49,272 bases of DNA. Origin: Rotaria socialis (taxonomy: Eukaryota). Shown here piece after piece: positions 3,556 through 46,216 of this stretch (positions within the stretch are counted from its first letter, which is position 1; the number at the start of each line of letters is the position of its first letter). The notes below the pieces were generated by a model that saw only the letters and a program-made list of their open reading frames with translations, was not told where the DNA came from and searched no databases. The translations under genes and the position numbers were made by a program. The DNA lies in assembly GCA_905331485.1 (NCBI GenBank), contig CAJNYT010000219.1:1-49272 (forward strand). The letters run 5' to 3'.

Positions 3556-3558
3556 TTG

Positions 3559-3620
3559 AGGGTGTGGGGTGTACATATATTTATCACCTATAAATACACA
3601 TCCACACCCACACCCACACC
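3559..3620. repeat. Inverted telomeric-repeat junction
   Basis: G-arm agggtgtggggtgt (3559-3572), 23-bp AT-rich spacer, C-arm acacatccacacccacacccacacc (3596-3620). Confidence 0.85.
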
Positions 3621-4127
3621 AACGATAAAAAAGGATATATAACTGTATAAATTTATCAAACAAGACTCGATGTAATACCATTTGTGTCTGAAACTGTTTT
3701 TACTTTTTTCAGAGAGCTCATATTCTAACCAAGTTTACCATTGTAAATGGTAATTAGCAACAAAGTTTAATAAGGTTATGCCATACATGGTTTTACTCAT
3801 CGATTCAAATAGTTCTCTCTCTCTCTCAAGTTAGATTAGGAAGTTCTTCTGATTAGAATTTGACTTTCTGCGTCGATTTGTACAAGCAGATTTTTCTATA
3901 GCACATAATTAGTTTCAAGTAGTACCGTTTGATCGCTCTTGGGTGTTCCTGTATTAATGGTTTTGAGCGGAACACAAATCAACATTCACATCTACAACCC
4001 ATTCGAAATATTTACAAGCCCTGTTGTTTTTTTTTGTGAAGTTTATAATAGAGGTCAATAACGACGAAAACATCACACACACAATCTTGTTTATTTAAAT
4101 CTTAATAATGTAGATTCTGGTGGGGGT

Positions 4128-4156
4128 TCTTTTCACGCATACCCTCCCCCCCCCCC
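4128..4156. repeat. G5 ... C11 homopolymer inverted pair (same G-first polarity as the telomeric junctions)
   Basis: ggtggggg ttcttttcacgcatacc ctccccccccccc. The C run of 11 is at 4146-4156. It is followed by (CT)n at about 4184-4200. Confidence 0.7.
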
Positions 4157-4279
4157 ACTAAACCCTAAATTTCTGTCTCCCCGTCTCTCTCTCTCTCTCT
4201 GTGTTGTCGATAAATCAATATGTAGTCTTGTTTTTAACAGTAGCATCCAGTCAAAACTAGTGTGATAGTATTTCGGTGA

Positions 4280-5362
4280 TCAAATTGATCTATCTATTAC
4301 TTGGTTGTTTCTTGGGCCTGTACCTATCAGCACCACAGGAATGCCTGTTTCACGTTCCATCATTTCTATATACTGCTTGGATTTTTCTGAAAGCTGATCA
4401 TATTGTGTGATACCAGCATCATCATAGTTGATATACTGTATGAAGTTAACTGCCAATTTGTTAACACCTGTCAGTTTCACTGCACGTTTGATACGATTCA
4501 CATCAATTTCAAATACCCGTCGTAATTTCTTAGTAACAGTTGTTAATTCTTTCGAAGAAAATGTCCCAATAGGGGCACCTGCTCGTTGTTCTACTTCTTC
4601 CCATGTGATTTCTTTTCCACCATCCCCTGAATATGCTTCACCTCCATCAGATTTAGCCATGTCATTAGAAATACGAATTGGATATGTACGAATGACACCA
4701 TAGATATCTCGAATATGTTTCGGAGGAATACCGTTATCTGAAAGTCCTTGCATTGGTGAACATTCTCTGCTGGTACAATGTGGATATTGAAAACCATGAT
4801 TAATACCTAATTCAAAACCTTGTGCTATTTCTAAAATACCTGTTTTTCCTTGTTCCAAATCATCGCAAGCCATTTCAGCTGTGTCTGCCAAAAAATTCGA
4901 CCACTCTCGAATGTCATGCATTAATTTATGATCTGGATGCCGCATTACTTTGAATGCACTAGCTGCACCAACACCTTTAAATGTACTTCCAGAGCGTATA
5001 TTCTCCTTTTCCCAATCACGATGTGTTTGTTGGATAACCGATGCTCTTGGATGAATAAAAAGACGGCCTTTTGCTTTTTCTTTGCCGCCAAGATACTGAT
5101 CAACTTCATTTTCAAGCTGTACCAAATCGATAACAGCGCCAGCACCTATATATAATTTCGTACTATCATTAATTAACGCTTGTGGCAACTGTTGGAAAAC
5201 ATATTTGGTGCCATCTTGTTTTATTACCGTATGACCTGCTTGTACACCATAGCTTTCAATAGCAAAATCATATTTGTGCTTTGTAGCTAAATATCCACCA
5301 ATAAGTCCTTTCCCGCACGATCCAAAGCAGAGATCAAGAATAATATCCAACGATCGTTCCAT
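4280..5362 (-). CDS. Adenylosuccinate synthetase family protein, short form (360 aa), PurA/PurZ-like, intronless
   Basis: Uninterrupted ATG..TGA ORF. By-eye alignment to E. coli PurA (query / PurA):
- LDLCFGSCGKG / LGTQWGDEGKGK (P-loop)
- QAGHT / NAGHT
- GSTFKGVG / GTTGRGIG
- EIAQGFELGINHGFQYPHCTS / [21 protein letters not shown]
- TTVTKKLRR / ATTGRRRR
- IGTGPR / ISTGPD
The P-loop Asp is replaced (GSCGKG). The TKLD guanine-specificity motif aligns to NFIQ. Confidence 0.85.
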   Translation of the reverse strand: MERSLDIILDLCFGSCGKGLIGGYLATKHKYDFAIESYGVQAGHTVIKQDGTKYVFQQLPQALINDSTKLYIGAGAVIDLVQLENEVDQYLGGKEKAKGRLFIHPRASVIQQTHRDWEKENIRSGSTFKGVGAASAFKVMRHPDHKLMHDIREWSNFLADTAEMACDDLEQGKTGILEIAQGFELGINHGFQYPHCTSRECSPMQGLSDNGIPPKHIRDIYGVIRTYPIRISNDMAKSDGGEAYSGDGGKEITWEEVEQRAGAPIGTFSSKELTTVTKKLRRVFEIDVNRIKRAVKLTGVNKLAVNFIQYINYDDAGITQYDQLSEKSKQYIEMMERETGIPVVLIGTGPRNNQVIDRSI

Positions 5363-5819
5363 CTGAATGCGTACCTAAAGTTGAACAAATATACATCATA
5401 TCATATAACAACAGCTATAGTGTTATTATGTGTGTACAATTGTTCTAAATAACAACGTATGATACAATACGAATGAATTCAAGTCGTAACCATTTTTCAT
5501 TATACAAAGCATTGATTGAGAGCTCTCATGTTAGTCATTTAAAAGTATCCAATTTAAAAAATAATGGTCTAAGATGATTACAAGGTAACTAAACAGATCT
5601 ATGTTTTTCTATAGGTTTCATAGGGCCTATTAGGATCTGCTAGAATCAAGCAGAGTCTAAAGGCTCGATTAAACTTCATAGAATCAACTAGCGCCCTCAT
5701 TATATGGATTCTATCTGAGGCTTTCGTGATCCCCTCACCCTAGAGATAATATATGTTGTCTTCTCTTCCATCCTCGTTCTGAAGAGTATTACAGACTCTA
5801 GCAAACCCTGTTAGATCCT

Positions 5820-5829
5820 GGGGGGGGGG
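5820..5829. repeat. G10 homopolymer, inverted partner of the C11 run at 4146-4156
   Basis: cctgggggggggga. Together with 4146-4156 it brackets the PurA-like ORF as 5-prime Cn ... Gn 3-prime. Confidence 0.7.
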
Positions 5830-6470
5830 ACTATTATGACTTATTACATAAATTATATAGAATAGAATTGTTATGGAGTTTATTTGTGCCATTCAGTGAA
5901 AACCAATCTAGAAGCTAATCCCATACGTCACAGCCATCTCATCAGTTTTAATCCAAACAGAAATAAAGCTAAGACGACGAATAATATGAAAACCACAAAG
6001 CTATTTGCATGTAAATATATTACTTTAGAAGCAGTCTCGCGCTTCCCATCTCTACTATGTTTAAAATTATGATATCATCTTTCCGCTGAAAGTTGTTTTG
6101 CAGATTTTTATTGATGCATTTCAAGCAAAAGAAACATTTTTTTTAAAAAGGAATACAAACTGGGTACTATGAAAAGAAAAGTAATCCTACATTTTCTTGT
6201 TATTTCTCGTAAATTCGTTTTGATAACTAGTGTTTTGTCTTCACCTAGCTTGTATCTTTGCTAGACGTTGACATACCTCTTCGTTTGTTCTTTCGGTAGG
6301 AAGCACCTTTATATATATATATAAGTCGATATCTTGGAAATTTTCAGTATATCTACAAAACAAGGGAAAAAATCATGGCTATAATATGGATGGTATTGGC
6401 CAGCCCAGTGCTGGATCAATGTTTATTTATTTTATTTCTTTATGTCACTCTCATCATAATCAATTAGGTA

Positions 6471-6850
6471 TCCGTATCACCAATATCAGTAACTTTATTT
6501 TTATATTTAATTAGACGGGCAATTTTCTTACTCATCGCATTTACCTATTCTTTTTCTTCTTCTCCATTAATAGACAAATATACTATATGTCTTTTACTTT
6601 TACTGACCGAAAACACAACACATGTAACATATGTTATTCGATGTCTATACAGATAATGAGGATAGAAATGCAAAAAAAAGAGAAAGAATTGGGGAATATA
6701 TGCTATCAATTGGGACACTTTCTCTTCTTTTCTCTAGTATATGTGTCTATTAATGGAGAACAAGAAAAATAATAGGTAAATACGATGAGTAAGAAAGTTG
6801 CACCATCATATTAAATAAGAACAAGAAAATTACTGATATAAGCGATACGG
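6471..6850. repeat. Fold-back inverted repeat, arms about 6471-6586 and 6735-6850, spacer about 148 bp, abutting the telomeric junction at 6864
   Basis: The reverse complement of the right arm (tccgtatcgcttatatcagtaatttt...cttactcatcgtatttacctattatttttcttgttctccattaatagacacatatacta) matches the left arm (tccgtatcaccaatatcagtaacttt...cttactcatcgcatttacctattctttttcttcttctccattaatagacaaatatacta). Confidence 0.8.
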
Positions 6851-6863
6851 ACATTTTATCACT

Positions 6864-6958
6864 GGGCGTGGGTGTGGGTGTGTGGATGAAGCAGAGAATA
6901 TGCAACACCCACACCCACACCCACACCCACACCCACACCCACACCCACACCCACACCC
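6864..6958. repeat. Inverted telomeric-repeat junction with the longest tract, (ACACCC)9
   Basis: G-arm gggcgtgggtgtgggtgtgtgga (6864-6886), 18-bp spacer, then nine perfect ACACCC units (6905-6958). Confidence 0.95.
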
Positions 6959-7575
6959 TGGTATTGCACGAAGTCTAGCACACTTCGAAACTTCTAAATG
7001 GTTTCACTCGTTAGTATGATTATAAATGCTTCTTTTGAAAGAGGTGAATAATAAACCCTTCTAATCAAAATATGATATTTACAACTCTAACTCTTAATTC
7101 TGTCTCATTTTTTTATGATGTACATTAAATAGATCAAAAAATGAGCATTGAAAAATATTTTAAAGACAAAAAGAAAATATTATTAAAATTCGAATAAAGA
7201 ACACTTGCCGAATTTAACCTTACAAATTCCACTGTTAAGCCACACATTTGCATTATGTTTGAAGAAAACAAATAAAATTTAAAATGAACATCTGGTTTAT
7301 TGAATATGTGAGTGAGAGAAAAGACAGCGCATAACTTATTTGTTAAACTGATAGATTGAAAAAAAAGAAAACCCTTAAAATGATCACTCTATCAATAAGT
7401 ATATGAATGCAGTGACGAATTCGAAAGTACCAAAAATTGGTAACATGCAGTAGAACGCATAGGCGCAGAAATTATTCAAAAATTGGATAGTCACTACATA
7501 ACAATTTTCGGGATTATATGCAAGCAGGTAACACAAAATATAAACATATCGTAAATTAAAAACACTAATAATAAA

Positions 7576-12551: not shown

Positions 12552-12797
12552 TCTGTGGCTGGAAGAAAGAAAAAAAAGAAAGGAAATGAAAGGAAATGAA
12601 AGGAAAGAAAAGAAGGAGACAATGTTGGTTAACTTCTGTTATGACACGTCTATAAGCTGTGTCATAAGATGAAAGGTATCACCCAAATATCTTGAGGATG
12701 TGTATAGTAAACAGAGACGTGCACAGGATATAATTTTTTCTCCTGCTCTTGCCTGTCCTGTTACCTACCTTGGTTCTGGTGGGCGGCAGGACAGGAG

Positions 12798-12868
12798 AGG
12801 GTGTGGGTGTGGGGTGTGTAGAGGTGGATGTGTGAGGTGATGCTTCTCTTCACTCACACTCACACCCT
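12798..12868. repeat. Inverted telomeric-repeat junction, preceded by a GC-rich CCTGTCCTG/CAGGACAGG hairpin (12752-12797)
   Basis: G-arm gagggtgtgggtgtggggtgtgtagaggtggatgtgtgaggtg; C-arm cactcacactcacaccct. Confidence 0.8.
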
Positions 12869-13386: not shown

Positions 13387-13510
13387 GATGTGGGGAGTGT
13401 GGTGTGGGTGTGGGTGGGTGTGGGTGTGAGTGTGTGTGAATCGCCAAACAAAACACCTATAGGGCACCCACACCAGCACCAACTCACGCCCATACACCAA
13501 CACCCACACC
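13387..13510. repeat. Inverted telomeric-repeat junction (long, degenerate arms)
   Basis: G-arm ggatgtggggagtgtggtgtgggtgtgggtgggtgtgggtgtgagtgtgtgtg (13387-13438); C-arm cacccacaccagcaccaactcacgcccatacaccaacacccacacc (13465-13510). Confidence 0.85.
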
Positions 13511-14461
13511 AGAGACCGTCACAGGGCAGGGCAAAAGTTTTTGCCCTGCGCCCTGATAATTTTTCCTATAAACTGATATACAGCATATTTTTCAGTAGAT
13601 TATGCTGACATGGTGATGGATTATAATGTATGTCATTATGCGCCAGTCACTGTGAAATTTGTTACTATGTCTAGTTCGGACAATACCAGTTTACTCATTT
13701 ATTATCATATAATTCAATTATAAAAATAAAATACTGCTTCTAAGAGAAATGCAAAACATGGTAGAATCATTTAATATTGTATAAGAGAACGAGCTAATTT
13801 AAGAATTATGTGTATGATGAGCTTTTTTTCTAAATGATTTCAGACATGAGCTTAGTATTCCAGAGGAAATTTCACTTGAAGATTCAACATGTTCTAATGG
13901 TAACTTTCTTCGCATGTTTTAGTTTTGTATGCTTAGTTCTCTATGTTTTAAATTATTTTCACTTGATATGAACTCGCCCGGTTTTACAAAATTAGAAGAT
14001 CTCTTATTTCATGATAAATCTTACCGCCCCATAATACACAATGAATCTCTTGCTACTGGTACATTTTGAAGAGTCTTTATTTACCCAGCACGATGAGTTG
14101 AGGAGAATACATGTGAAAGATTTACTTGATTTCTCACTTATTCAAATTATGTACATATTCAATCGCCAGATCACGATAAGCGCATTATTTTTGCAGTGAA
14201 CTGATTTTTGTGATAATCTTAATTGCTGTTTGCTACTCATACTTAATTATGTTTTCAGCGCATATCTATATTTTCTCGAATATAGATAAATAAAAATACG
14301 AGTACTTTACTTTTCAGCGGTTACAACATTTTCATTTAGTCTTTACCTTTTTCAATATTTCAGTTCAATTTATAATCACGCCCTGTCCTGCCCTGAGACA
14401 GGGCAGGATATAGCAGGGCGCAGGGCAGGACAGGGCAAAAAGTTGCCCTGTGACGATCTCT
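13511..14461. mobile_element. Non-autonomous element of about 950 bp with GC-rich CAGGGC-palindromic terminal inverted repeats, apparently inserted into the telomeric C-arm
   Basis: The left end is agagaccgtcacagggcagggcaaaagtttttgccctgcgccctg. The reverse complement of the right end is agagatcgtcacagggcaactttttgccctgtcctgccctgcgccctg. The interior is AT-rich with no ORF. C-strand telomeric sequence lies on both sides (..cacccacacc | element | gatccacaccc). Confidence 0.65.
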
Positions 14462-21250: not shown

Positions 21251-21303
21251 GAGGATGTGGGTGTAAGCAATCTTTGTATTAACAATCCCACTCACACCCA
21301 CAC
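21251..21303. repeat. Inverted telomeric-repeat junction
   Basis: G-arm gaggatgtgggtgt, 22-bp spacer, C-arm cccactcacacccacac. Confidence 0.8.
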
Positions 21304-21720
21304 TTTACAGTATCTGAGCTTTGGATGAACCCATTTTCTGACTAATGGAAGATCGGATAGGAAAAATGACGGTGGATTCGGGTTCCTGGATCTCCATGAC
21401 CTATTGCAAATTTTGATAGTTTCGAAGAATCTGTTTCGCGTCTTGGTGTAAGCGTGTGTCTCTTCACGACATAGAGCATCTGTGAAACCCGTAAGAAACA
21501 TGAAGGAATACAAGCATAGTTTTTCATAAAAATTTAGCGTTAAATGCTGATGTGGTTTGTATTAGGTTTGATACAGGAGCATTGACTATGTACAGGAAAT
21601 GTAGAGATGGTGATCGGATCCTATTGAAAACTGATCGAAAACGATAGTAGGAAAGTATATTGATTCCGACTTTTGAATCCGTTGTCGGATTCTGTATAGA
21701 ATTGATCGAGCTGATGAGTT

Positions 21721-22010
21721 GTAGTCATTAGAAACAATCGATTGTTAATCAAACAATTCGATTGTAAAATATTTGGATTTCAATCGGTAGAGAAGATTTT
21801 AATCGATTGTAAAATTAAAATCAGTTTCAACTGCTGTAATTAGAAATAACCGATTGATAATCTATCAATTTGATTTTCCAAGATTGAAATTTCAATTGAT
21901 TGGGAAGATTTCAATCAATTGTTCGATTAAAATCAGAGTTTAAGGGGTAAAATCATCAATAATTGATAGAATAGATTAAAACTTGAATCAATTGCTGGAT
22001 TTTAGTCGGA
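21721..22010. repeat. Degenerate tandem repeat, about 2.5 units of about 114 bp, rich in CAATCGATTG-type palindromes
   Basis: Unit 1 (21721-21835) and unit 2 (21836-21947) align at about 70 percent (gtagtcattagaaacaatcgattg.. / gtaattagaaataaccgattg.. ; ..attaaaatcagtttcaa / ..attaaaatcagagttta). A partial third unit follows. Confidence 0.65.
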
Positions 22011-23097: not shown

Positions 23098-23162
23098 TTG
23101 TGTGTGGGTGTGGGTATGGGCTGATCATGAGTCAGATAGGCACCTGCACCCACACCCACCCT
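23098..23162. repeat. Inverted telomeric-repeat junction
   Basis: G-arm ttgtgtgtgggtgtgggtatggg, 26-bp spacer, C-arm cacccacacccaccct. Confidence 0.85.
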
Positions 23163-24861
23163 CGTGACTCACGCATGGTGAAAACCCCACCTCGCTATCT
23201 TGTTCCTATCAAAAGTTATTCAAAAAATACCCACCGCCTTTTTTTAAATGGGCAGTAGGTTCTTTTAGAATTTAGTTAATATACTGTGCAGATTATTGCA
23301 CTTTGTTTGTGATTTCTTTTGAATAAATTGAAATCATTTAAAACACGTATGGCAGAGTCATTACCATCTGATGACTTCATTAAACTAGGACGAAATCTGG
23401 ATCATGGTATGCTTGACACACCCACAACGTCTTTTTATCACACACCAAATCCAGTAATTAATCAACTGTTACACAAAAACAACTCGTCAATTCTGTCGCC
23501 ACCTCATCAATCACCATTGCCACATCATCCACCACTAAATCAGATCGTATCATAAACATTTTTATTCATAATCAGCACCTAACGTTTGCTTTTTTTCATC
23601 GTATTTGAATTACTTTATCATCAGCTTTTCTCTTTTTAATCATCTCGCATATTGTTTCTAGTGAACAATATGAATTATCTGAAGTTTTTCGTTCTTTTTA
23701 CTCTTACTATATTCTTTTCGGTTTTGTGGAACTCACATATATTTTCGAAGAAAATGGTGAGAGTAAGTTTAAAAGCGAGATTTTTGCGGCTCCCCACCCC
23801 CTCCCCATTACAGGCATTAATTAGCTTAAAATTGTGCTAATTAGGAGCTTGACTAATTAGGCTGCTGTTTCTTCCTTTTTTAAACTACAGACTGCACGAA
23901 AAAGCGATGCTTGCCCATTACAGACCATAGAAACTAGTATCTGTCATTGATAAATATACGAGCTAACAATTAATACTCAATTACAGATATAAGCAAATAG
24001 GCAATAACCTAATTATAAGCTTTGGAAATCAGGGTAGATTTTTTAGATGAACTATTTTGAATTATTTTAGTAAGCCAAAGGGATATATGTGAGTTCCACA
24101 TTTTAGCCACAAAGGGGCTGTACTAATAAGCTTTTCTTCTTCTTCTTATCATGGTGTTTGAATCGTTTCAATCTCGTATTCTATTGTTATGTGAAGGTCC
24201 TTACTACCTTTCCGCTGTATATATATTCAAATAAGTAAACCCAAAAGTGTCCCTACTACATAACTAACTAGCTATATATAGCGACAGAGAGAACACAGAG
24301 AGAAAGAAGATAGACCATGAACATATAGATAGTACGAATCAAACAACAGGCGAGATGTAGGAAGATAATAAGAGATACTGTAGATGGGGCGACTCTACGA
24401 CCTAACCGGAGAGCAGGTCGTAACACCACCCCGCAACTAACAAGATGCGCGCCCGCGCATCAACAGAAATGGAAAAAAAACCAGGAATACATAGGAGAAA
24501 AAAGAAAGTGGAAAAAAAACGAAAAAAACGAGAAAACTAGAAAAGGGTTAATGAGATTGACAGATGATTGTAGTCGAGGACAAAACCCTAACCAATTTGG
24601 CTTGTCATGTTGTCGATCGATGTCGATGATTGACATAAAGTCATTTCCTCGGACGATCGCCATTGCCACACCGTCGAGCCGCCTTCGCCACCTTGTTGAA
24701 GGAAGACAATGATAATGAAGAATGGGCACCGTCGCCACCCCGGCGACACCTGCTTTGTTGAAGCATATGCTGTTGAGAAGAGGATCACAACAGGCTCGGT
24801 TAATCTGCCAACAATGCTACGTTGTGCCGCTCTAGCACTTGTCGAAGTTGACTAACATGGC

Positions 24862-24954
24862 TGGGTGTGGGTGTGAGATGTGGGCGGGCATAATTTTGAT
24901 TGTGCGTACATGAGACAATAGAATAATATTCATACCCACAACCACACCCACACC
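24862..24954. repeat. Inverted telomeric-repeat junction
   Basis: G-arm tgggtgtgggtgtgagatgtgggcggg, 45-bp spacer, C-arm acccacaaccacacccacacc. Confidence 0.85.
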
Positions 24955-25438
24955 GATTTAACCATAAACTCGCTGATGGAATTAGTTAGGCATTCTTTTT
25001 TGAAATTATATTTATTTCAAAGCAAATTTTGAAATTATTATTTTGTTGTCAGGTAGGACGATTATTGAAACTCTAGAGTTAAGACTAACAGATTGATTTA
25101 TATGAAAGACATACGGATAGGAATTCACTAGTACAGTCGGACTGGTACACCCACCTTCAATCTCATCCCCAGTCTGACCCTTCGAGTGGGGAACCCAAAA
25201 CGGTCCCGTTCCGGATGGGACTGAATTCGGAACCAAAAAATAATTTTTTGTGGAACCGGGACTAAATACTTTTTTAGTCAGTCCCGAGCAAATTTTTTAA
25301 AGAAAAAAAATCGTCTATAGTACTTGGTTCTTTTATTTTCAAGAAGTAATTTCACTATTTTCCCTTTCATATATTTTATAATACAAGAAAATCTTCACAA
25401 ATAAATATTCAAAATTTTAAAACAACACGATAAACTTG

Positions 25439-25495
25439 AGGGTGTGGGTGTAGACTGAATTAAAAACAGCGTATCCACATCGACACCCACACCCA
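25439..25495. repeat. Inverted telomeric-repeat junction
   Basis: G-arm agggtgtgggtgt, 21-bp spacer, C-arm atccacatcgacacccacaccc. Confidence 0.85.
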
Positions 25496-25832
25496 AAATA
25501 GAAGTGTGTTTCAGAAAATCGGGACCTGGACTGAAAAAAATTAGTCGGGCTTGGGATGGGATCGGGACCAAAAAGGGTGGTCCCTCATTTCCCTACCTTC
25601 CAGAGATAAGGCTTTATTTTGAAACTAGTTTTTGTATGCAAACTCACATGTTGTAAAATGTTTTTTTTTATTCTGTGCGATGATAATATTAGGAAAAATA
25701 GATAAGAGAAATTGCGTTGTACAGAATGAAATAAGCACAACGGAAAAATTATTTATTTTAATATTTGATATTCAACACAAGAAGACAGGCAAAAATACAT
25801 TATATTTTAACGAAAATTCATTTTAGGAGTTC

Positions 25833-27722: not shown

Positions 27723-27778
27723 GGGGTGTGTGGTGTGGGTGTGGATATGATCCAGACTGGAAAATTCACCCACACCCA
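27723..27778. repeat. Inverted telomeric-repeat junction starting 15 nt after the ART-TPR stop codon
   Basis: G-arm ggggtgtgtggtgtgggtgtgga, 21-bp spacer, C-arm cacccacaccca. Confidence 0.9.
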
Positions 27779-44578: not shown

Positions 44579-46216
44579 ATTTCGAAGACAATTTGCACTT
44601 AATTTAACGTCCAACATATCTGTCTGTAATCTACTTCTTCTGGACGTATGCCCACTTGGTCTGGGCATCGAAGATATTAAGGGTGAGATGCATACATTGG
44701 TACGCCGTAATACAGTTATTCCAACGCGAACTCAACTTTATCCTATATTCACAAATGCTTATGCCTATCAGGCAACAGCTACCATTCGAATATTTGAAGG
44801 TGAACATTATCTCACAAAATACAATGTATATAGTGTTCTAACTTCATAAATTTTATTTTCTAATCGTCCTCTATTGCAGAGATTATTGGGCGAGTTTAGT
44901 CTTCCTGGTCTAACAAGCAACTTCTCTGCTCAGACACTCGAAATAGCTATTCGTATGGATATTGATGCTAATGGGATACTTCATGTCGATGCTGAAGAAG
45001 CACGTTCGGGCGCGAAAGCTTCGTTTATTCTTGGATCTGATCAGCAAAGTTCGACAATTACTCAGATATTTCATACCATCGCTAAATGCCTTTTATATTT
45101 ATCTAGGATTGAGCAAAAATGATATTGAGCGACATATTGCATATGTAGAAAGTGATGCAAATGTTGCAGCTAAATCTGGTTAGTGTGTAAAAAGGATAAA
45201 TGATGTTCAATTATTGTTATTTTGTAGTTCATGATCACAAACCCAATGATCGATTGTATTTAGTTCGTATTATGTCATCTTTTCATAGTTCGATTGTTCA
45301 CTTTTTCTGTTTTTTCTCAGCTGGCTGGCCAAATTACATCTGTAATACGTGACTTTTCTGGTGAACTTATAACATCATTCGGTAATTTGTCCTTCGTTGT
45401 TGTTTGAAAGATATAGCGAAAATGGTGTATGAATTCAGGTCAAACAATTGGTGCTCCACTTCTCATTCAACTGAAAAATGTTCGATTTTCAAAAACGTTA
45501 ACTGAAGAGCTCATCAAAATTCAATCTGAGGTAATTGATACTATTTTCAAGTCTTATTACCAAATCATTGTTTTGCATTTGATTCGAACATAGGACGGTT
45601 CATTTACGTTGAATAAAGATTTAGCTGATATACTTCATGTCAATGTTGATATTTTCGATGGCCTAGAACAATACTTACGCGCACTAGGTTTTAACTCGCT
45701 CGGTAAGATCGTAAGATTTATTATAGAGATATGACCTTTAATTTTTTTTTAGCTTTGAACACACAAAATGAAATTCTTCGTTTAATTGGTACAGGTGTCA
45801 TTCTGTTTTGGCTCGCTCTTCAAATGCAAGACTCACCACAAAACACGTGTCCATTTTTATTTAACATTGAACAAATCAAAGTGAATTGATTTTTTCCAAT
45901 CTTTGCAATTTATATCCTACTCTCTTTATGTTGCCACAAAACACGTGTCCATTTTTATTTAACATTGAACAAATCAAAGTGAATTGATTTTTTCCAATCT
46001 TTGCAATTTATATCCTACTCTCTTTATGTTGCTAAGGCTTTTCTCTGCAATCATTTATCTGCTAACACAAGTGAAAAACTTGACAAAGCGATCGGATTCT
46101 ATCAACAAATAAGTCAACGTAATCGTATCTATTGTAAACAATTAGAATTGAGCGATTCATCATGGGACATGTTTATTCAACGTATAGTTATCGGCATCGA
46201 TCATGGCGATAACTAA
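44579..46216 (+). CDS. Multi-exon gene segment: Hsp70 substrate-binding-domain-like module followed by a PARP4/VWA5A-type C-terminal region
   Basis: - Exon 44579-44825: ..SNISVCNLLLLDVCPLGLGIEDIKGEMHTLVRRNTVIPTRTQLYPIFTNAYAYQATATIRIFEGEHYLTKYN.
- Exon 44880-45048: RLLGEFSLPGLTSNFSAQTLEIAIRMDIDANGILHVDAEEARSGAKASFILGSDQQ.
- Exon 45107-45178: LSKNDIERHIAYVESDANVAAKS.
- These three match Hsp70 DLLLLDVxPLSLGIE...RNTTIPTK...YEGER...LLGxFxLxGIPPAPRGxPQIEVTFDIDANGIL...LSKEEIERM.
- Further exons (about 45289 or 45321)-45381, 45439-45530, 45594-45702, 45753-45880 and 46037-46216 encode ..KIQSEDGSFTLNKDLADILHV...LRLIGTGVILFWLALQ... and the stop.
- The junction after 45178 is unresolved. Confidence 0.65.
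45837..46032. repeat. Perfect 98-bp tandem duplication (45837-45934 and 45935-46032)
   Basis: cacaaaacacgtgtccatttttatttaacattgaacaaatcaaagtgaattgattttttccaatctttgcaatttatatcctactctctttatgttgc occurs twice back to back without a mismatch. It covers the last 44 nt of an exon, its GTGAAT donor and 54 nt of intron. Confidence 0.95.

What the first reader, a model, noticed from the sequence alone, without database searches (positions are those of the whole stretch)
4128..5829. The PurA/PurZ-like gene is bracketed by inverted homopolymer caps (C11 left, G10 right)
A run of 11 C (4146-4156, itself preceded by GGTGGGGG 17 bp upstream) and a run of 10 G (5820-5829) flank the 1.08-kb ORF. The polarity is 5-prime Cn ... 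Gn 3-prime. This is the same C-left/G-right rule as the telomere-flanked cassettes, but with homopolymers in place of TGTGGG repeats. Such long G/C runs are conspicuous in DNA that is otherwise AT-rich. They could be relics of the capture mechanism, for example tailing or aberrant telomerase products. They could also be the termini of a small element that delivered the gene.
Basis: seen in the sequence. Interest (0 to 1): 0.5.

Follow-up and report, generated by a model that had tools for sequence, protein, structure and literature searches.

The report
Poly-C/poly-G telomere-type scars flanking purZ
The two long C and G runs around a phage-derived purZ-like gene in the rotifer Rotaria socialis are real, and they most likely are degenerate telomere-type junction scars like a dozen others in this subtelomere-like region, not the ends of a mobile element that delivered the gene.

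Summary
Observation confirmed. C11 (4146-4156) and G10 (5820-5829) exist. They are the only C or G runs longer than 5 in 49 kb, and 10 further assemblies of two Rotaria species carry them at the same positions (lengths 9-13, sometimes interrupted).

Interpretation partly supported.
- The window is a chain of cassettes separated by at least 10 head-to-head junctions: (TGTGGG)n, a 16-59 nt spacer, then (CCCACA)n. No close pair has the reverse order.
- C11 is the C arm of one more such junction (GGTGGGGG, 15 nt, CCCTC11AC).
- In some R. magnacalcarata assemblies the runs read GTGGGGGTG10AGGGG and TGGGGGGTGGGGG.
- An unrelated environmental contig carries G12..G6..C10ACCCACA.
- I therefore read the runs as G-stuttered or decayed telomere-type tracts at old break or fusion junctions.

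Not supported: termini of an element that delivered the gene.
- There is no inverted repeat beyond the runs and no target duplication.
- Homology to phage and to Adineta stops within about 20-50 nt of the ORF.
- Adineta copies lack the runs.
- Sequence outside the runs is co-conserved with sequence inside.

Side result: the gene is a PurZ-type synthetase (Ser replaces Asp13). It is 82% identical to genes on phage-like metagenome contigs, and I found no paper describing it in rotifers.

The parts
4119..4126 (+). Short G-type telomere-like arm. It reads GGTGGGGG here and GGTGGGTG in other R. socialis assemblies and in R. magnacalcarata.
   Evidence: A G-type octamer at 7/8 or better within a given 30 nt is expected with probability about 0.03.
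4127..4141 (.). 15-nt non-telomeric spacer of the junction (TTCTTTTCACGCATA).
   Evidence: It resembles the spacer at 39791-39806, but the similarity is statistically weak.
4142..4158 (+). C-type arm CCCTC11AC, which contains the C11 run (4146-4156). CCCCCAC (4152-4158) is the exact complement of GTGGGGG (4120-4126).
   Evidence: The R. magnacalcarata orthologue reads CCCCTC10ACCCCCAC.
4159..4279 (-). 3' flank of the gene, including a (TC)8 tract. It is 91.5% identical between the two Rotaria species. Only about the first 50 nt after the stop codon align with A. ricciae.
4280..5362 (-). Intact 360-aa PurZ-type (2-amino)adenylosuccinate synthetase gene of phage origin.
   Evidence: PF00709 at 8e-42 and phrog_1211 at 3e-64. 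Best solved-structure matches are the PurZ of phage phiVC8 (6fm1) and of S-2L (7odx). The motif FGSCGKG has Ser at the position of PurA Asp13; the Ser rule is stated in PMC12884076. The protein is 82% identical to P0003 on phage-like contigs.
5363..5817 (-). 5' flank, presumably promoter and 5' UTR. It is 98.0% identical between the Rotaria species. About 50 nt next to the ATG align with A. ricciae. TTAGGTAC sits where the phage-like contig has its ribosome-binding site TTAGGAGG.
5818..5829 (+). G-type arm CTG10, which contains the G10 run (5820-5829). In R. magnacalcarata it reads CTGGGGGGTGGGGG followed by CCC (L013-L015), or G12 followed by CCC (L017/L018). R. socialis has no C-arm partner here.
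3557..3623 (.). Canonical head-to-head telomeric junction (G arm 3557-3568, spacer, C arm 3597-3623). It is the left limit of the block shared with R. magnacalcarata.
6863..6959 (.). Canonical head-to-head telomeric junction (G arm 6863-6884, 18-nt spacer, C arm 6903-6959 with 9 repeats). It is the right limit of the block shared with R. magnacalcarata.

Best explanation
The C11 and G10 runs are telomere-type G-strand tracts that stuttered or decayed into near-homopolymers. They sit at two old junctions in a chain of DNA segments.

Inferred process: in this Rotaria subtelomere-like region, broken or free DNA ends received short G-rich additions on their 3' ends. These were normally (TGTGGG)n and here were TG5-10-like. 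The ends were then joined to other such ends. Each segment therefore reads C-rich on the left and G-rich on the right. Each joint reads G arm, short filler, C arm, which is the signature of a telomere-to-telomere fusion or of a break healed on both sides.

The purZ segment (4142-5829) is one link of this chain and lies nested inside a larger block (3597-6884). The runs later changed length by slippage.

Shown directly: the architecture, the orientation rule, the interrupted orthologous forms, and the presence of the runs across assemblies. Inferred: that telomerase or another end-adding activity made the tracts, and the order of events.
For: 1. Twelve to thirteen telomere-repeat patch pairs lie in the window. 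Ten close pairs (16-59 nt apart) are all in G-then-C order and none is C-then-G. Shuffled sequence gives no patches. R. magnacalcarata loci show the same junctions.
2. C11 has a G-type partner 19 nt upstream, which gives the same G-arm/15-nt spacer/C-arm layout. The polarity of both runs fits the chain.
3. Some R. magnacalcarata orthologues read GTGGGGGTGGGGGGGGGGAGGGG and TGGGGGGTGGGGG, that is, T-separated G blocks. A 6-7-nt GGGGGT(G) indel separates the two species.
4. Independent AT-rich metagenome contigs, selected only for a canonical junction, also carry homopolymer junctions. L050 has G12-CATT-G6-ATCGAT-C10ACCCACA. L061 has G13-TTTGAA-C6. L061 also has a canonical C arm followed about 870 nt later by G11.
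5. Canonical arms already show over-long G runs. Counts are G3 x291, G4 x15 and G5 x3, with two of the G5 cases at the first repeat of an arm.
6. Synteny between the two Rotaria species ends at the telomeric junctions near 3597 and 6884-6959. Such junctions are therefore rearrangement points.
7. Other R. socialis gene regions lack both telomere patches and G or C runs.
8. Literature: short telomeric stretches are typical of bdelloid subtelomeres (PMC2861651). Telomeric repeats have been seen at deletion breakpoints in A. vaga (PMC13564844).
Against: - The runs are homopolymers, not TGTGGG repeats. A telomerase origin is inferred from context only.
- G10 has no C-arm partner in R. socialis, and only CCC in R. 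magnacalcarata.
- The interruption in the upstream run is seen in some R. magnacalcarata assemblies (L013-L015) but not in others (L017/L018). It could be a later substitution or a sequencing error.
- Neither cap coincides with a synteny break between the two Rotaria species, so nothing shows directly that they were ever free ends.
- The metagenome contigs with homopolymer junctions could not be assigned to an organism, because they have no long ORFs.
- Non-telomeric spacers of 15-60 nt are longer than expected for simple end-to-end fusion.
- Only about 170 kb of bdelloid or bdelloid-like DNA could be sampled. The genome-wide frequency and pairing of G and C runs is unknown.
Confidence: 0.5

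Rival explanations
1. The two runs are unrelated to telomere biology. They are ordinary G-rich tracts that expanded by replication slippage. They may be kept because they help expression of the gene, for example as a nucleosome-excluding poly(dG:dC) tract upstream and a 3'-end element. Their inverted polarity would be coincidence.
For: Run lengths differ among assemblies, as expected for slippage. The 455-nt stretch between the upstream run and the ATG is as conserved as the ORF (98.0% against 98.7%) and more conserved than the neighbouring segments at 94-96%. This suggests a constrained promoter region that begins at the run.
Against: No other G or C run exceeds 5 nt in 49 kb, so there is no general tendency to expand. 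The joint chance of two such runs lying within 1.7 kb, in C-left/G-right order, with a G-type octamer beside the C run, is my estimate of about 0.07 x 0.25 x 0.03, taking the last factor. Homopolymer G-then-C junctions fused to ACCCACA occur in unrelated contigs. Adineta copies of the gene function without such runs.
Confidence: 0.2
2. The runs are homopolymer tails added to both 3' ends of a free linear DNA fragment carrying purZ. A non-telomerase activity would have added them, such as a terminal-transferase-like or Pol X/Pol theta-type polymerase, before the fragment was ligated into the chromosome. In that case the runs mark the true limits of a captured piece.
For: C-left/G-right is exactly what dG tailing of both 3' ends followed by fill-in would give (inference from the geometry). 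The segment between the runs holds a single foreign gene.
Against: Donor homology is detectable only in the ORF plus about 20 nt. The 457-nt and 123-nt flanks inside the caps cannot be shown to be foreign. Adineta orthologues share about 50 nt of flank with Rotaria, which points to an older shared insertion, yet they lack caps. So the caps arose after the gene arrived. The interrupted forms and the adjoining CCCAC/GTGGG units look like telomere repeats rather than pure tails.
Confidence: 0.12
3. The runs are the terminal inverted repeats of a small mobile element that carried the gene in.
For: Only the inverted C/G polarity supports this.
Against: There is no inverted repeat beyond the homopolymers: the inner-flank alignment scores below the shuffle mean, and the outer-flank alignment scores at the shuffle mean. 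There is no target-site duplication. No transposase or reverse transcriptase was found among the ORFs of at least 150 aa, and no hammerhead ribozyme. No second copy of the unit was seen. The same flanks lie outside the caps in both Rotaria species.
Confidence: 0.05
4. The runs are sequencing, assembly or polishing artefacts.
For: Assemblies misbehave at both runs: G96+N with a local duplication in L004, and N10 in L017/L018. Lengths vary from 9 to 13.
Against: The runs are present at identical positions in 11 assemblies or run assemblies of two species, including the window. Only their exact length is doubtful.
Confidence: 0.02

Closest known systems
Short interstitial telomeric-repeat stretches in bdelloid rotifer subtelomeres, and neotelomere scars at breaks (Gladyshev and Arkhipova work as cited in PMC2861651; Terminon review PMC6431247; A. 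vaga repair study PMC13564844)
   Same: Same organism group and the same repeat (TGTGGG)n. The genomic setting also matches: a subtelomere-like region rich in foreign and repetitive genes. Repeats mark former chromosome ends or breaks.
   Different: The descriptions I could read report head-to-tail chains (Athena/Terminon units 5'-truncated by repeats of one orientation) or unspecified 'short stretches'. Here the patches come as head-to-head G-then-C pairs, and two of the arms are near-homopolymers. I found no text describing either feature. The key subscription papers (Gladyshev 2007/2008; Arkhipova 2017) were not readable.
Head-to-head telomere fusion relics, such as the human 2q13 ancestral fusion site (TTAGGG)n-(CCCTAA)m, and NHEJ telomere fusions (general knowledge; PMC2847243 was listed but not read)
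   Same: The G-strand array meets the C-strand array head to head, which is the arrangement expected when two capped ends are joined.
   Different: Here the arms are only 8-57 nt long, they are separated by 15-60 nt of unrelated filler, and they recur every 0.5-12 kb. This is a chain, not a single event.
Irregular or stuttered telomerase products, such as the variable G runs of fission yeast and Dictyostelium telomeres and poly(dG) synthesis by ciliate telomerase in vitro (from my own knowledge, not checked here)
   Same: G-run length varies within telomere-type tracts. Canonical arms here already show G4 and G5.
   Different: Runs of 10-13 G are far beyond the variation seen in the canonical arms sampled. 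No biochemical data exist for bdelloid telomerase.
Gene-sized macronuclear chromosomes of spirotrich ciliates (C4A4 at the left end, G4T4 at the right; from my own knowledge)
   Same: Each short gene-bearing segment is bounded by a C-rich tract on the left and a G-rich tract on the right.
   Different: Those are free linear molecules with functional telomeres. Here the segments are concatenated inside a chromosome, and the tracts are short relics.
Phage PurZ (2-aminoadenylosuccinate synthetase of Z-genome phages), for the enclosed gene
   Same: Adenylosuccinate synthetase fold. Ser replaces the essential Asp13. The best structural-sequence matches are to PurZ of phiVC8 and S-2L. The nearest relatives lie next to a family-A DNA polymerase on phage-like contigs.
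   Different: The gene is encoded in an animal genome as a lone gene. No phage gene other than purZ from contig L008 (family-A polymerase, thymidylate kinase and the rest of its called genes) has a match in the window or the rotifer loci. It is only 31-40% identical to PurZ of cultured phages. Its activity is untested.

Membership tests
Interstitial telomeric junction (healed-break or telomere-fusion scar) | The tract is built of the species' telomeric repeat unit (TGTGGG). | tested here: inconclusive
   The runs are C11 and G10, not hexamer repeats. Some R. magnacalcarata orthologues read GTGGGGGTG10AGGGG and TGGGGGGTGGGGG. In L050 a C10 run continues directly into ACCCACA.
Interstitial telomeric junction (healed-break or telomere-fusion scar) | A G-type arm is followed within 80 nt or less by a C-type arm (head-to-head). 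| tested here: met
   Met for C11: GGTGGGGG 4119-4126, 15-nt spacer, CCCTC11AC 4142-4158. For G10 the partner is absent in R. socialis and is only CCC in R. magnacalcarata. Ten of ten canonical close pairs in the window have this order.
Interstitial telomeric junction (healed-break or telomere-fusion scar) | The polarity fits the chain (C-type at the left end and G-type at the right end of each segment). | tested here: met
Interstitial telomeric junction (healed-break or telomere-fusion scar) | The junction coincides with a rearrangement or synteny break in a related genome. | tested here: not met
   Both caps lie inside a block that is collinear between R. socialis and R. magnacalcarata. The breaks are at the canonical junctions near 3597 and 6884-6959. 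No more distant Rotaria genome could be fetched.
DNA transposon or other element with terminal inverted repeats | Inverted repeat extending beyond the homopolymers, a target-site duplication, and a transposase or further copies. | tested here: not met
   The inner-flank alignment scores below the shuffle mean and the outer-flank alignment at the shuffle mean. There is no direct repeat at the borders. There are no transposase domains in ORFs of at least 150 aa. No other copy is present in the loci held.
Athena/Terminon retroelement unit boundary | C-rich repeats immediately after a hammerhead ribozyme at the 3' end, repeats of one orientation at both ends, and a reverse transcriptase ORF (as described in PMC6431247). 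| tested here: not met
   No hammerhead match even at E up to 5. The patches are head-to-head, not head-to-tail. There is no reverse transcriptase among the large ORFs.
Boundary of the horizontally transferred fragment | Similarity to donor DNA extends up to the caps. | tested here: not met
   blastn and tblastx similarity to the phage-like contigs covers 4292-5362 only. About 20 nt upstream resembles the phage ribosome-binding-site region. With 73% identity in the ORF, non-coding homology may simply have decayed.
Assembly artefact | Absent from independent assemblies or reads. | tested here: not met
   Present in 11 assemblies of two species.
PurZ (for the enclosed gene) | PF00709 fold with Ser in place of the essential Asp13 of PurA. 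| tested here: met
   PF00709 at 8e-42. FGSCGKG aligns with FGSTGKG of phiVC8 PurZ. The rule is stated in PMC12884076.
PurZ (for the enclosed gene) | Condenses dGMP with aspartate; accompanied by DatZ/MazZ/DpoZ functions. | not testable with these tools
   Activity needs an enzyme assay. No phage gene other than purZ from contig L008 has a match in the window or the rotifer loci. DatZ and MazZ themselves were not searched for.

The most novel reading that the evidence does not exclude
Rotaria subtelomeres are built by a capture pathway in which free DNA fragments, including a phage fragment carrying purZ, are capped on both 3' ends by telomerase. The caps are sometimes stuttered into poly-G. 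The fragments are then joined head-to-head onto chromosome ends. Alternatively, repeated telomere fusion, breakage and healing cycles produce the same pattern. Either way, C-left/G-right cassettes and G-spacer-C joints would be the readable footprint of how bdelloids take up and shuffle foreign DNA.
Probability: 0.2. Interest if true: 0.8.

Novelty: new variant of a known kind. Interest (0 to 1): 0.4.

Why it matters
How bdelloid rotifers incorporate foreign DNA is an open question. If the G-then-C junctions, including their homopolymer variants, are scars of ends that were capped and then joined, every junction would record an end-joining event that can be dated and mapped. The homopolymer forms would also report on the fidelity of the end-adding enzyme.

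On its own, the pair of runs is a minor variant of a known feature of bdelloid subtelomeres. It is also a practical warning, because assemblies break at these runs.

The enclosed gene may matter more. It is an intact phage PurZ-type gene, conserved across bdelloid genera, which raises the question of whether an animal makes 2-aminoadenine nucleotides.

Tried and rejected
- Hammerhead ribozymes or other Rfam families at the junctions: only a tRNA reached the curated threshold, and sub-threshold hits were generic hairpin (miRNA) models.
- TIR and TSD around the caps: none.
- Extension of phage or Adineta homology to the caps: none.
- Co-transfer of neighbouring phage genes: the thymidylate kinase next to purZ in Adineta is not similar to the phage one, and only purZ is shared.
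- A shared spacer motif among junctions: the 4127-4141 and 39791-39806 spacers look alike, but the best pair score is reached in 45% of shuffles overall. It is reached in 1% of shuffles for that one spacer only. I treat it as unproven.
- The AAACCCT/TTTAGGG motif near both caps: not conserved in R. magnacalcarata, so judged to be chance.
- Organism assignment of metagenome contigs L050 and L061: no usable ORFs.
- Close relatives in IMG/VR by peptide patterns: none.
- Look-up of P0133: not on record.
- The Terminon paper PMC5850863 is not held.
- A C-then-G control scan of the metagenome collection was impossible because the cap is one scan.
Full report
**Source and setting.** The exact protein of the ORF at 4280-5362 (minus strand) is recorded as Rotaria socialis. 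Five other R. socialis assemblies carry the same locus (L001-L005). The window is 33.7% G+C. It encodes PARP-like, WWE, caspase, TPR, glycosyltransferase and VIT-VWA proteins and one tRNA. It is peppered with the bdelloid telomeric hexamer TGTGGG. This is the known make-up of bdelloid subtelomeric regions (PMC2861651; PMC7943196).

**Observation.**
- C11 lies at 4146-4156 and G10 at 5820-5829. GGTGGGGG lies at 4119-4126.
- All other C and G runs in the window are 5 nt or shorter. A Markov model expects about 5e-5 runs of C11 or longer and about 5e-4 runs of G10 or longer.
- Both runs recur at the same offsets from the gene in five more R. socialis assemblies, with lengths 10-13 and 11-12.
- They also recur in five R. 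magnacalcarata assemblies. There the upstream run is C5AC6 or C12, preceded by GGG, and the downstream run is G9-G11.
- Three assemblies break at the runs. L004 has G96+N and a 19-nt duplication. L017 and L018 have N10.
- The runs are therefore real, but their exact length is unreliable.
- About 45-50 kb of other R. socialis loci (L071-L076), the A. ricciae locus, L016 and the rest of L013 contain no G or C run of 8 or more.

**What surrounds them.** I mapped 12-mers with at least 11/12 identity to (TGTGGG)n on both strands. This gave 26 patches, against none in shuffled sequence.
- Ten pairs are close neighbours (16-59 nt apart). All ten are in the order G-type then C-type: 3557/3597, 6863/6903, 12797/12855, 13400/13494, 21253/21289, 23099/23146, 24861/24934, 25437/25481, 27731/27766 and 39771/39807.
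- No close C-then-G pair exists.
- The region is therefore a chain of segments of 0.5-12 kb. Most begin with a C-type tract and end with a G-type tract, and most are joined by head-to-head junctions. The PARP-like segment from 6903 has no G arm of its own.
- R. magnacalcarata loci show the same junctions.
- The A. ricciae and L016 purZ loci and ordinary R. socialis gene regions show almost none.

**How the runs fit.** On the plus strand, 4119-4158 reads GGTGGGGG, TTCTTTTCACGCATA, CCCTCCCCCCCCCCCAC.
- This is a G arm, a 15-nt spacer and a C arm, the same layout as the canonical junctions. GTGGGGG and CCCCCAC are exactly complementary.
- Other R. socialis assemblies and R. magnacalcarata have GGTGGGTG as the G arm.
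- G10 is the right-hand G arm of the same segment. In R. magnacalcarata it reads CTGGGGGGTGGGGG followed by CCC (L013-L015), or G12 followed by CCC (L017/L018).
- The orthologue of the C11 arm reads, in gene orientation, GTGGGGGTGGGGGGGGGGAGGGG. It differs from R. socialis by a 6-7-nt GGGGGT(G) indel.
- Within canonical arms, G3 dominates (291 cases), but G4 (15) and G5 (3) occur. Two of the G5 cases are at the first repeat of an arm.

**Independent examples.** I made one metagenome scan for GGGTGTGGGTGT-N10-40-ACACCCACACCC. It returned 52 contigs, about half of them AT-rich. The contigs were selected for a canonical junction only, yet several also carry homopolymer junctions.
- L050 3845-3889 reads G12-CATT-G6-ATCGAT-C10ACCCACA.
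- L061 10225 reads G13-TTTGAA-C6.
- L061 (the same locus as L019, L056 and L060) has a canonical C arm followed about 870 nt later by G11.
- L048 has C14ACACCCAC.
- Their organisms could not be identified.
- L027 comes from the same metagenome (Ga0116226) as L050 and matches the window's tRNA region at 83%.
- Poly-G or poly-C at the ends of contigs L048 and L064 are artefacts: the same sequence ends in G38 in one and C27 in the other.

**Tests of the 'delivery element' idea.**
- Similarity to the phage-like contigs and to the Adineta copies is confined to the ORF (blastn and tblastx).
- About 50 nt on either side still align between Rotaria and Adineta. About 20 nt upstream resembles the phage ribosome-binding-site region, TTAGGAGG against TTAGGTAC.
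- The caps lie 457 nt upstream and 123 nt downstream of the ORF.
- There is no inverted repeat beyond the runs and no target duplication.
- Adineta copies have no G or C run of 6 or more within 6 kb.
- Between the two Rotaria species the sequence outside the caps is conserved along with the inside. Identities are 94.3% for segment A, 91.5% for the 3' flank, 98.7% for the ORF, 98.0% for the 5' flank and 95.7% for segment C.
- Collinearity ends at the canonical junctions near 3597 and 6884-6959, beyond which the two species have unrelated sequence.
- The caps are therefore internal joints of a larger shared block. They most likely post-date the arrival of the gene in bdelloids.

**Mechanism.**
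- Shown: the head-to-head architecture, its strict polarity, the membership of C11 in one such junction, the T-interrupted orthologous forms, and rearrangement at such junctions.
- Inferred: 3' ends of breaks or free fragments were extended with G-rich repeats, and the extended ends were then joined. Candidate routes are telomere-telomere fusion, rejoining of a break healed on both sides, or fusion-breakage-healing cycles. The G runs would come from stuttering of the adding enzyme, from later slippage, or from both.
- Telomeric repeats at deletion breakpoints have been reported in A. vaga (PMC13564844). A head-to-head G/C arrangement is the classical signature of telomere fusion (my own knowledge).
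- Terminon or Athena chains would give one-orientation repeats next to a hammerhead ribozyme (PMC6431247). Neither is seen here.

**The enclosed gene.**
- It matches PF00709 at 8e-42 and phrog_1211 ('2-aminooxy adenylosuccinate synthetase') at 3e-64. Its best solved relatives are PurZ of phiVC8 and of S-2L.
- Its P-loop reads FGSCGKG. The Asp13 that is essential and 99% conserved in PurA is Ser here, as in all 147 phage PurZ sequences analysed in PMC12884076.
- The nearest non-rotifer relatives are 82%, 77% and 75% identical at the protein level, and 73% at the nucleotide level for the closest. They lie on 31-239 kb metagenome contigs with compact same-strand genes, including a phage-type family-A DNA polymerase, ribonucleotide reductase, a DNA methylase and thymidylate kinase.
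- Cultured phages reach only 31-40% identity.
- The gene is intact in R. socialis, R. magnacalcarata, A. ricciae and the unidentified L016. Synonymous codon differences outnumber non-synonymous ones by about two to one.
- I found no paper mentioning purZ in rotifers.

**Verdict.** The 'termini of a delivering element' reading is not supported. As a feature, this is a variant of the known interstitial telomeric scars of bdelloid subtelomeres. The broader head-to-head chain and the phage purZ gene are the more interesting items.

Noticed in passing
window 4280-5362 (-); L006, L007, L013-L018, L016; phage-like L008-L012: An intact PurZ-type gene (Ser in place of PurA Asp13) sits in an animal genome. 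It is 82% identical at the protein level to genes on phage-like metagenome contigs. It is conserved in Rotaria and Adineta, and a relic of the phage ribosome-binding site lies upstream. No paper on it was found in the library.
   Followed up: partly
window 3557-3623, 6863-6959, 12797-12867, 13400-13511, 21253-21304, 23099-23161, 24861-24956, 25437-25497, 27731-27780, 39771-39826: Ten head-to-head telomeric junctions (G arm, 16-59 nt spacer, C arm) divide the window into C-left/G-right cassettes. No close pair has the reverse order. The same junctions occur in R. magnacalcarata and in 52 metagenome contigs.
   Followed up: partly
window ~3977/3978; L013 and L014: R. magnacalcarata carries a MITE-like insertion of about 240 bp that is absent from R. 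socialis. Its TIRs are CAAGGGGGAAACGGCAGACTT and AAGTCTGCTGCTTCCCCCTAG, and its 8-bp target duplication is ATGTTGAT.
   Followed up: no
window 6519-6585 and 6735-6801: A 67-nt inverted repeat, 93% complementary with arms 149 nt apart, lies in the non-coding segment next to the purZ cassette. A second 43-nt pair (6471-6513 and 6809-6851) encloses it.
   Followed up: no
L004 9417-9543; L017 and L018 near 2660-2690: Public assemblies break at the homopolymers. L004 has G96+N with a duplicated 19-mer beside the upstream run. L017 and L018 have an N10 gap beside the downstream run.
   Followed up: yes
window 5363-5817: The 455-nt stretch between the upstream run and the ATG is 98.0% identical between the two Rotaria species. 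That is as conserved as the ORF and more conserved than the flanking segments (94-96%), which suggests a constrained promoter or 5' UTR.
   Followed up: partly
window 4127-4141 and 39791-39806: The spacers of two junctions resemble each other (TTCTTTTCACGCATA and TCTTTTTCAGCGCATG). A third spacer (25454-25480) has ACAGCGTATCC. The similarity is statistically weak.
   Followed up: partly
window 45836-46032; 21727-21936: An exact 98-bp tandem duplication, and a 112-bp tandem repeat (1.9 copies, 77% matches).
   Followed up: no
window 28479-29555 (-): An ORF with an EryCIII-like/UDP-glycosyltransferase domain. It may be another gene of bacterial origin.
   Followed up: no
L048 4213-4250; L064 2174-2200: The same metagenome sequence ends in G38 in one contig and in C27 in another. 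These are contig-end homopolymer artefacts and should not be counted as biological runs.
   Followed up: yes
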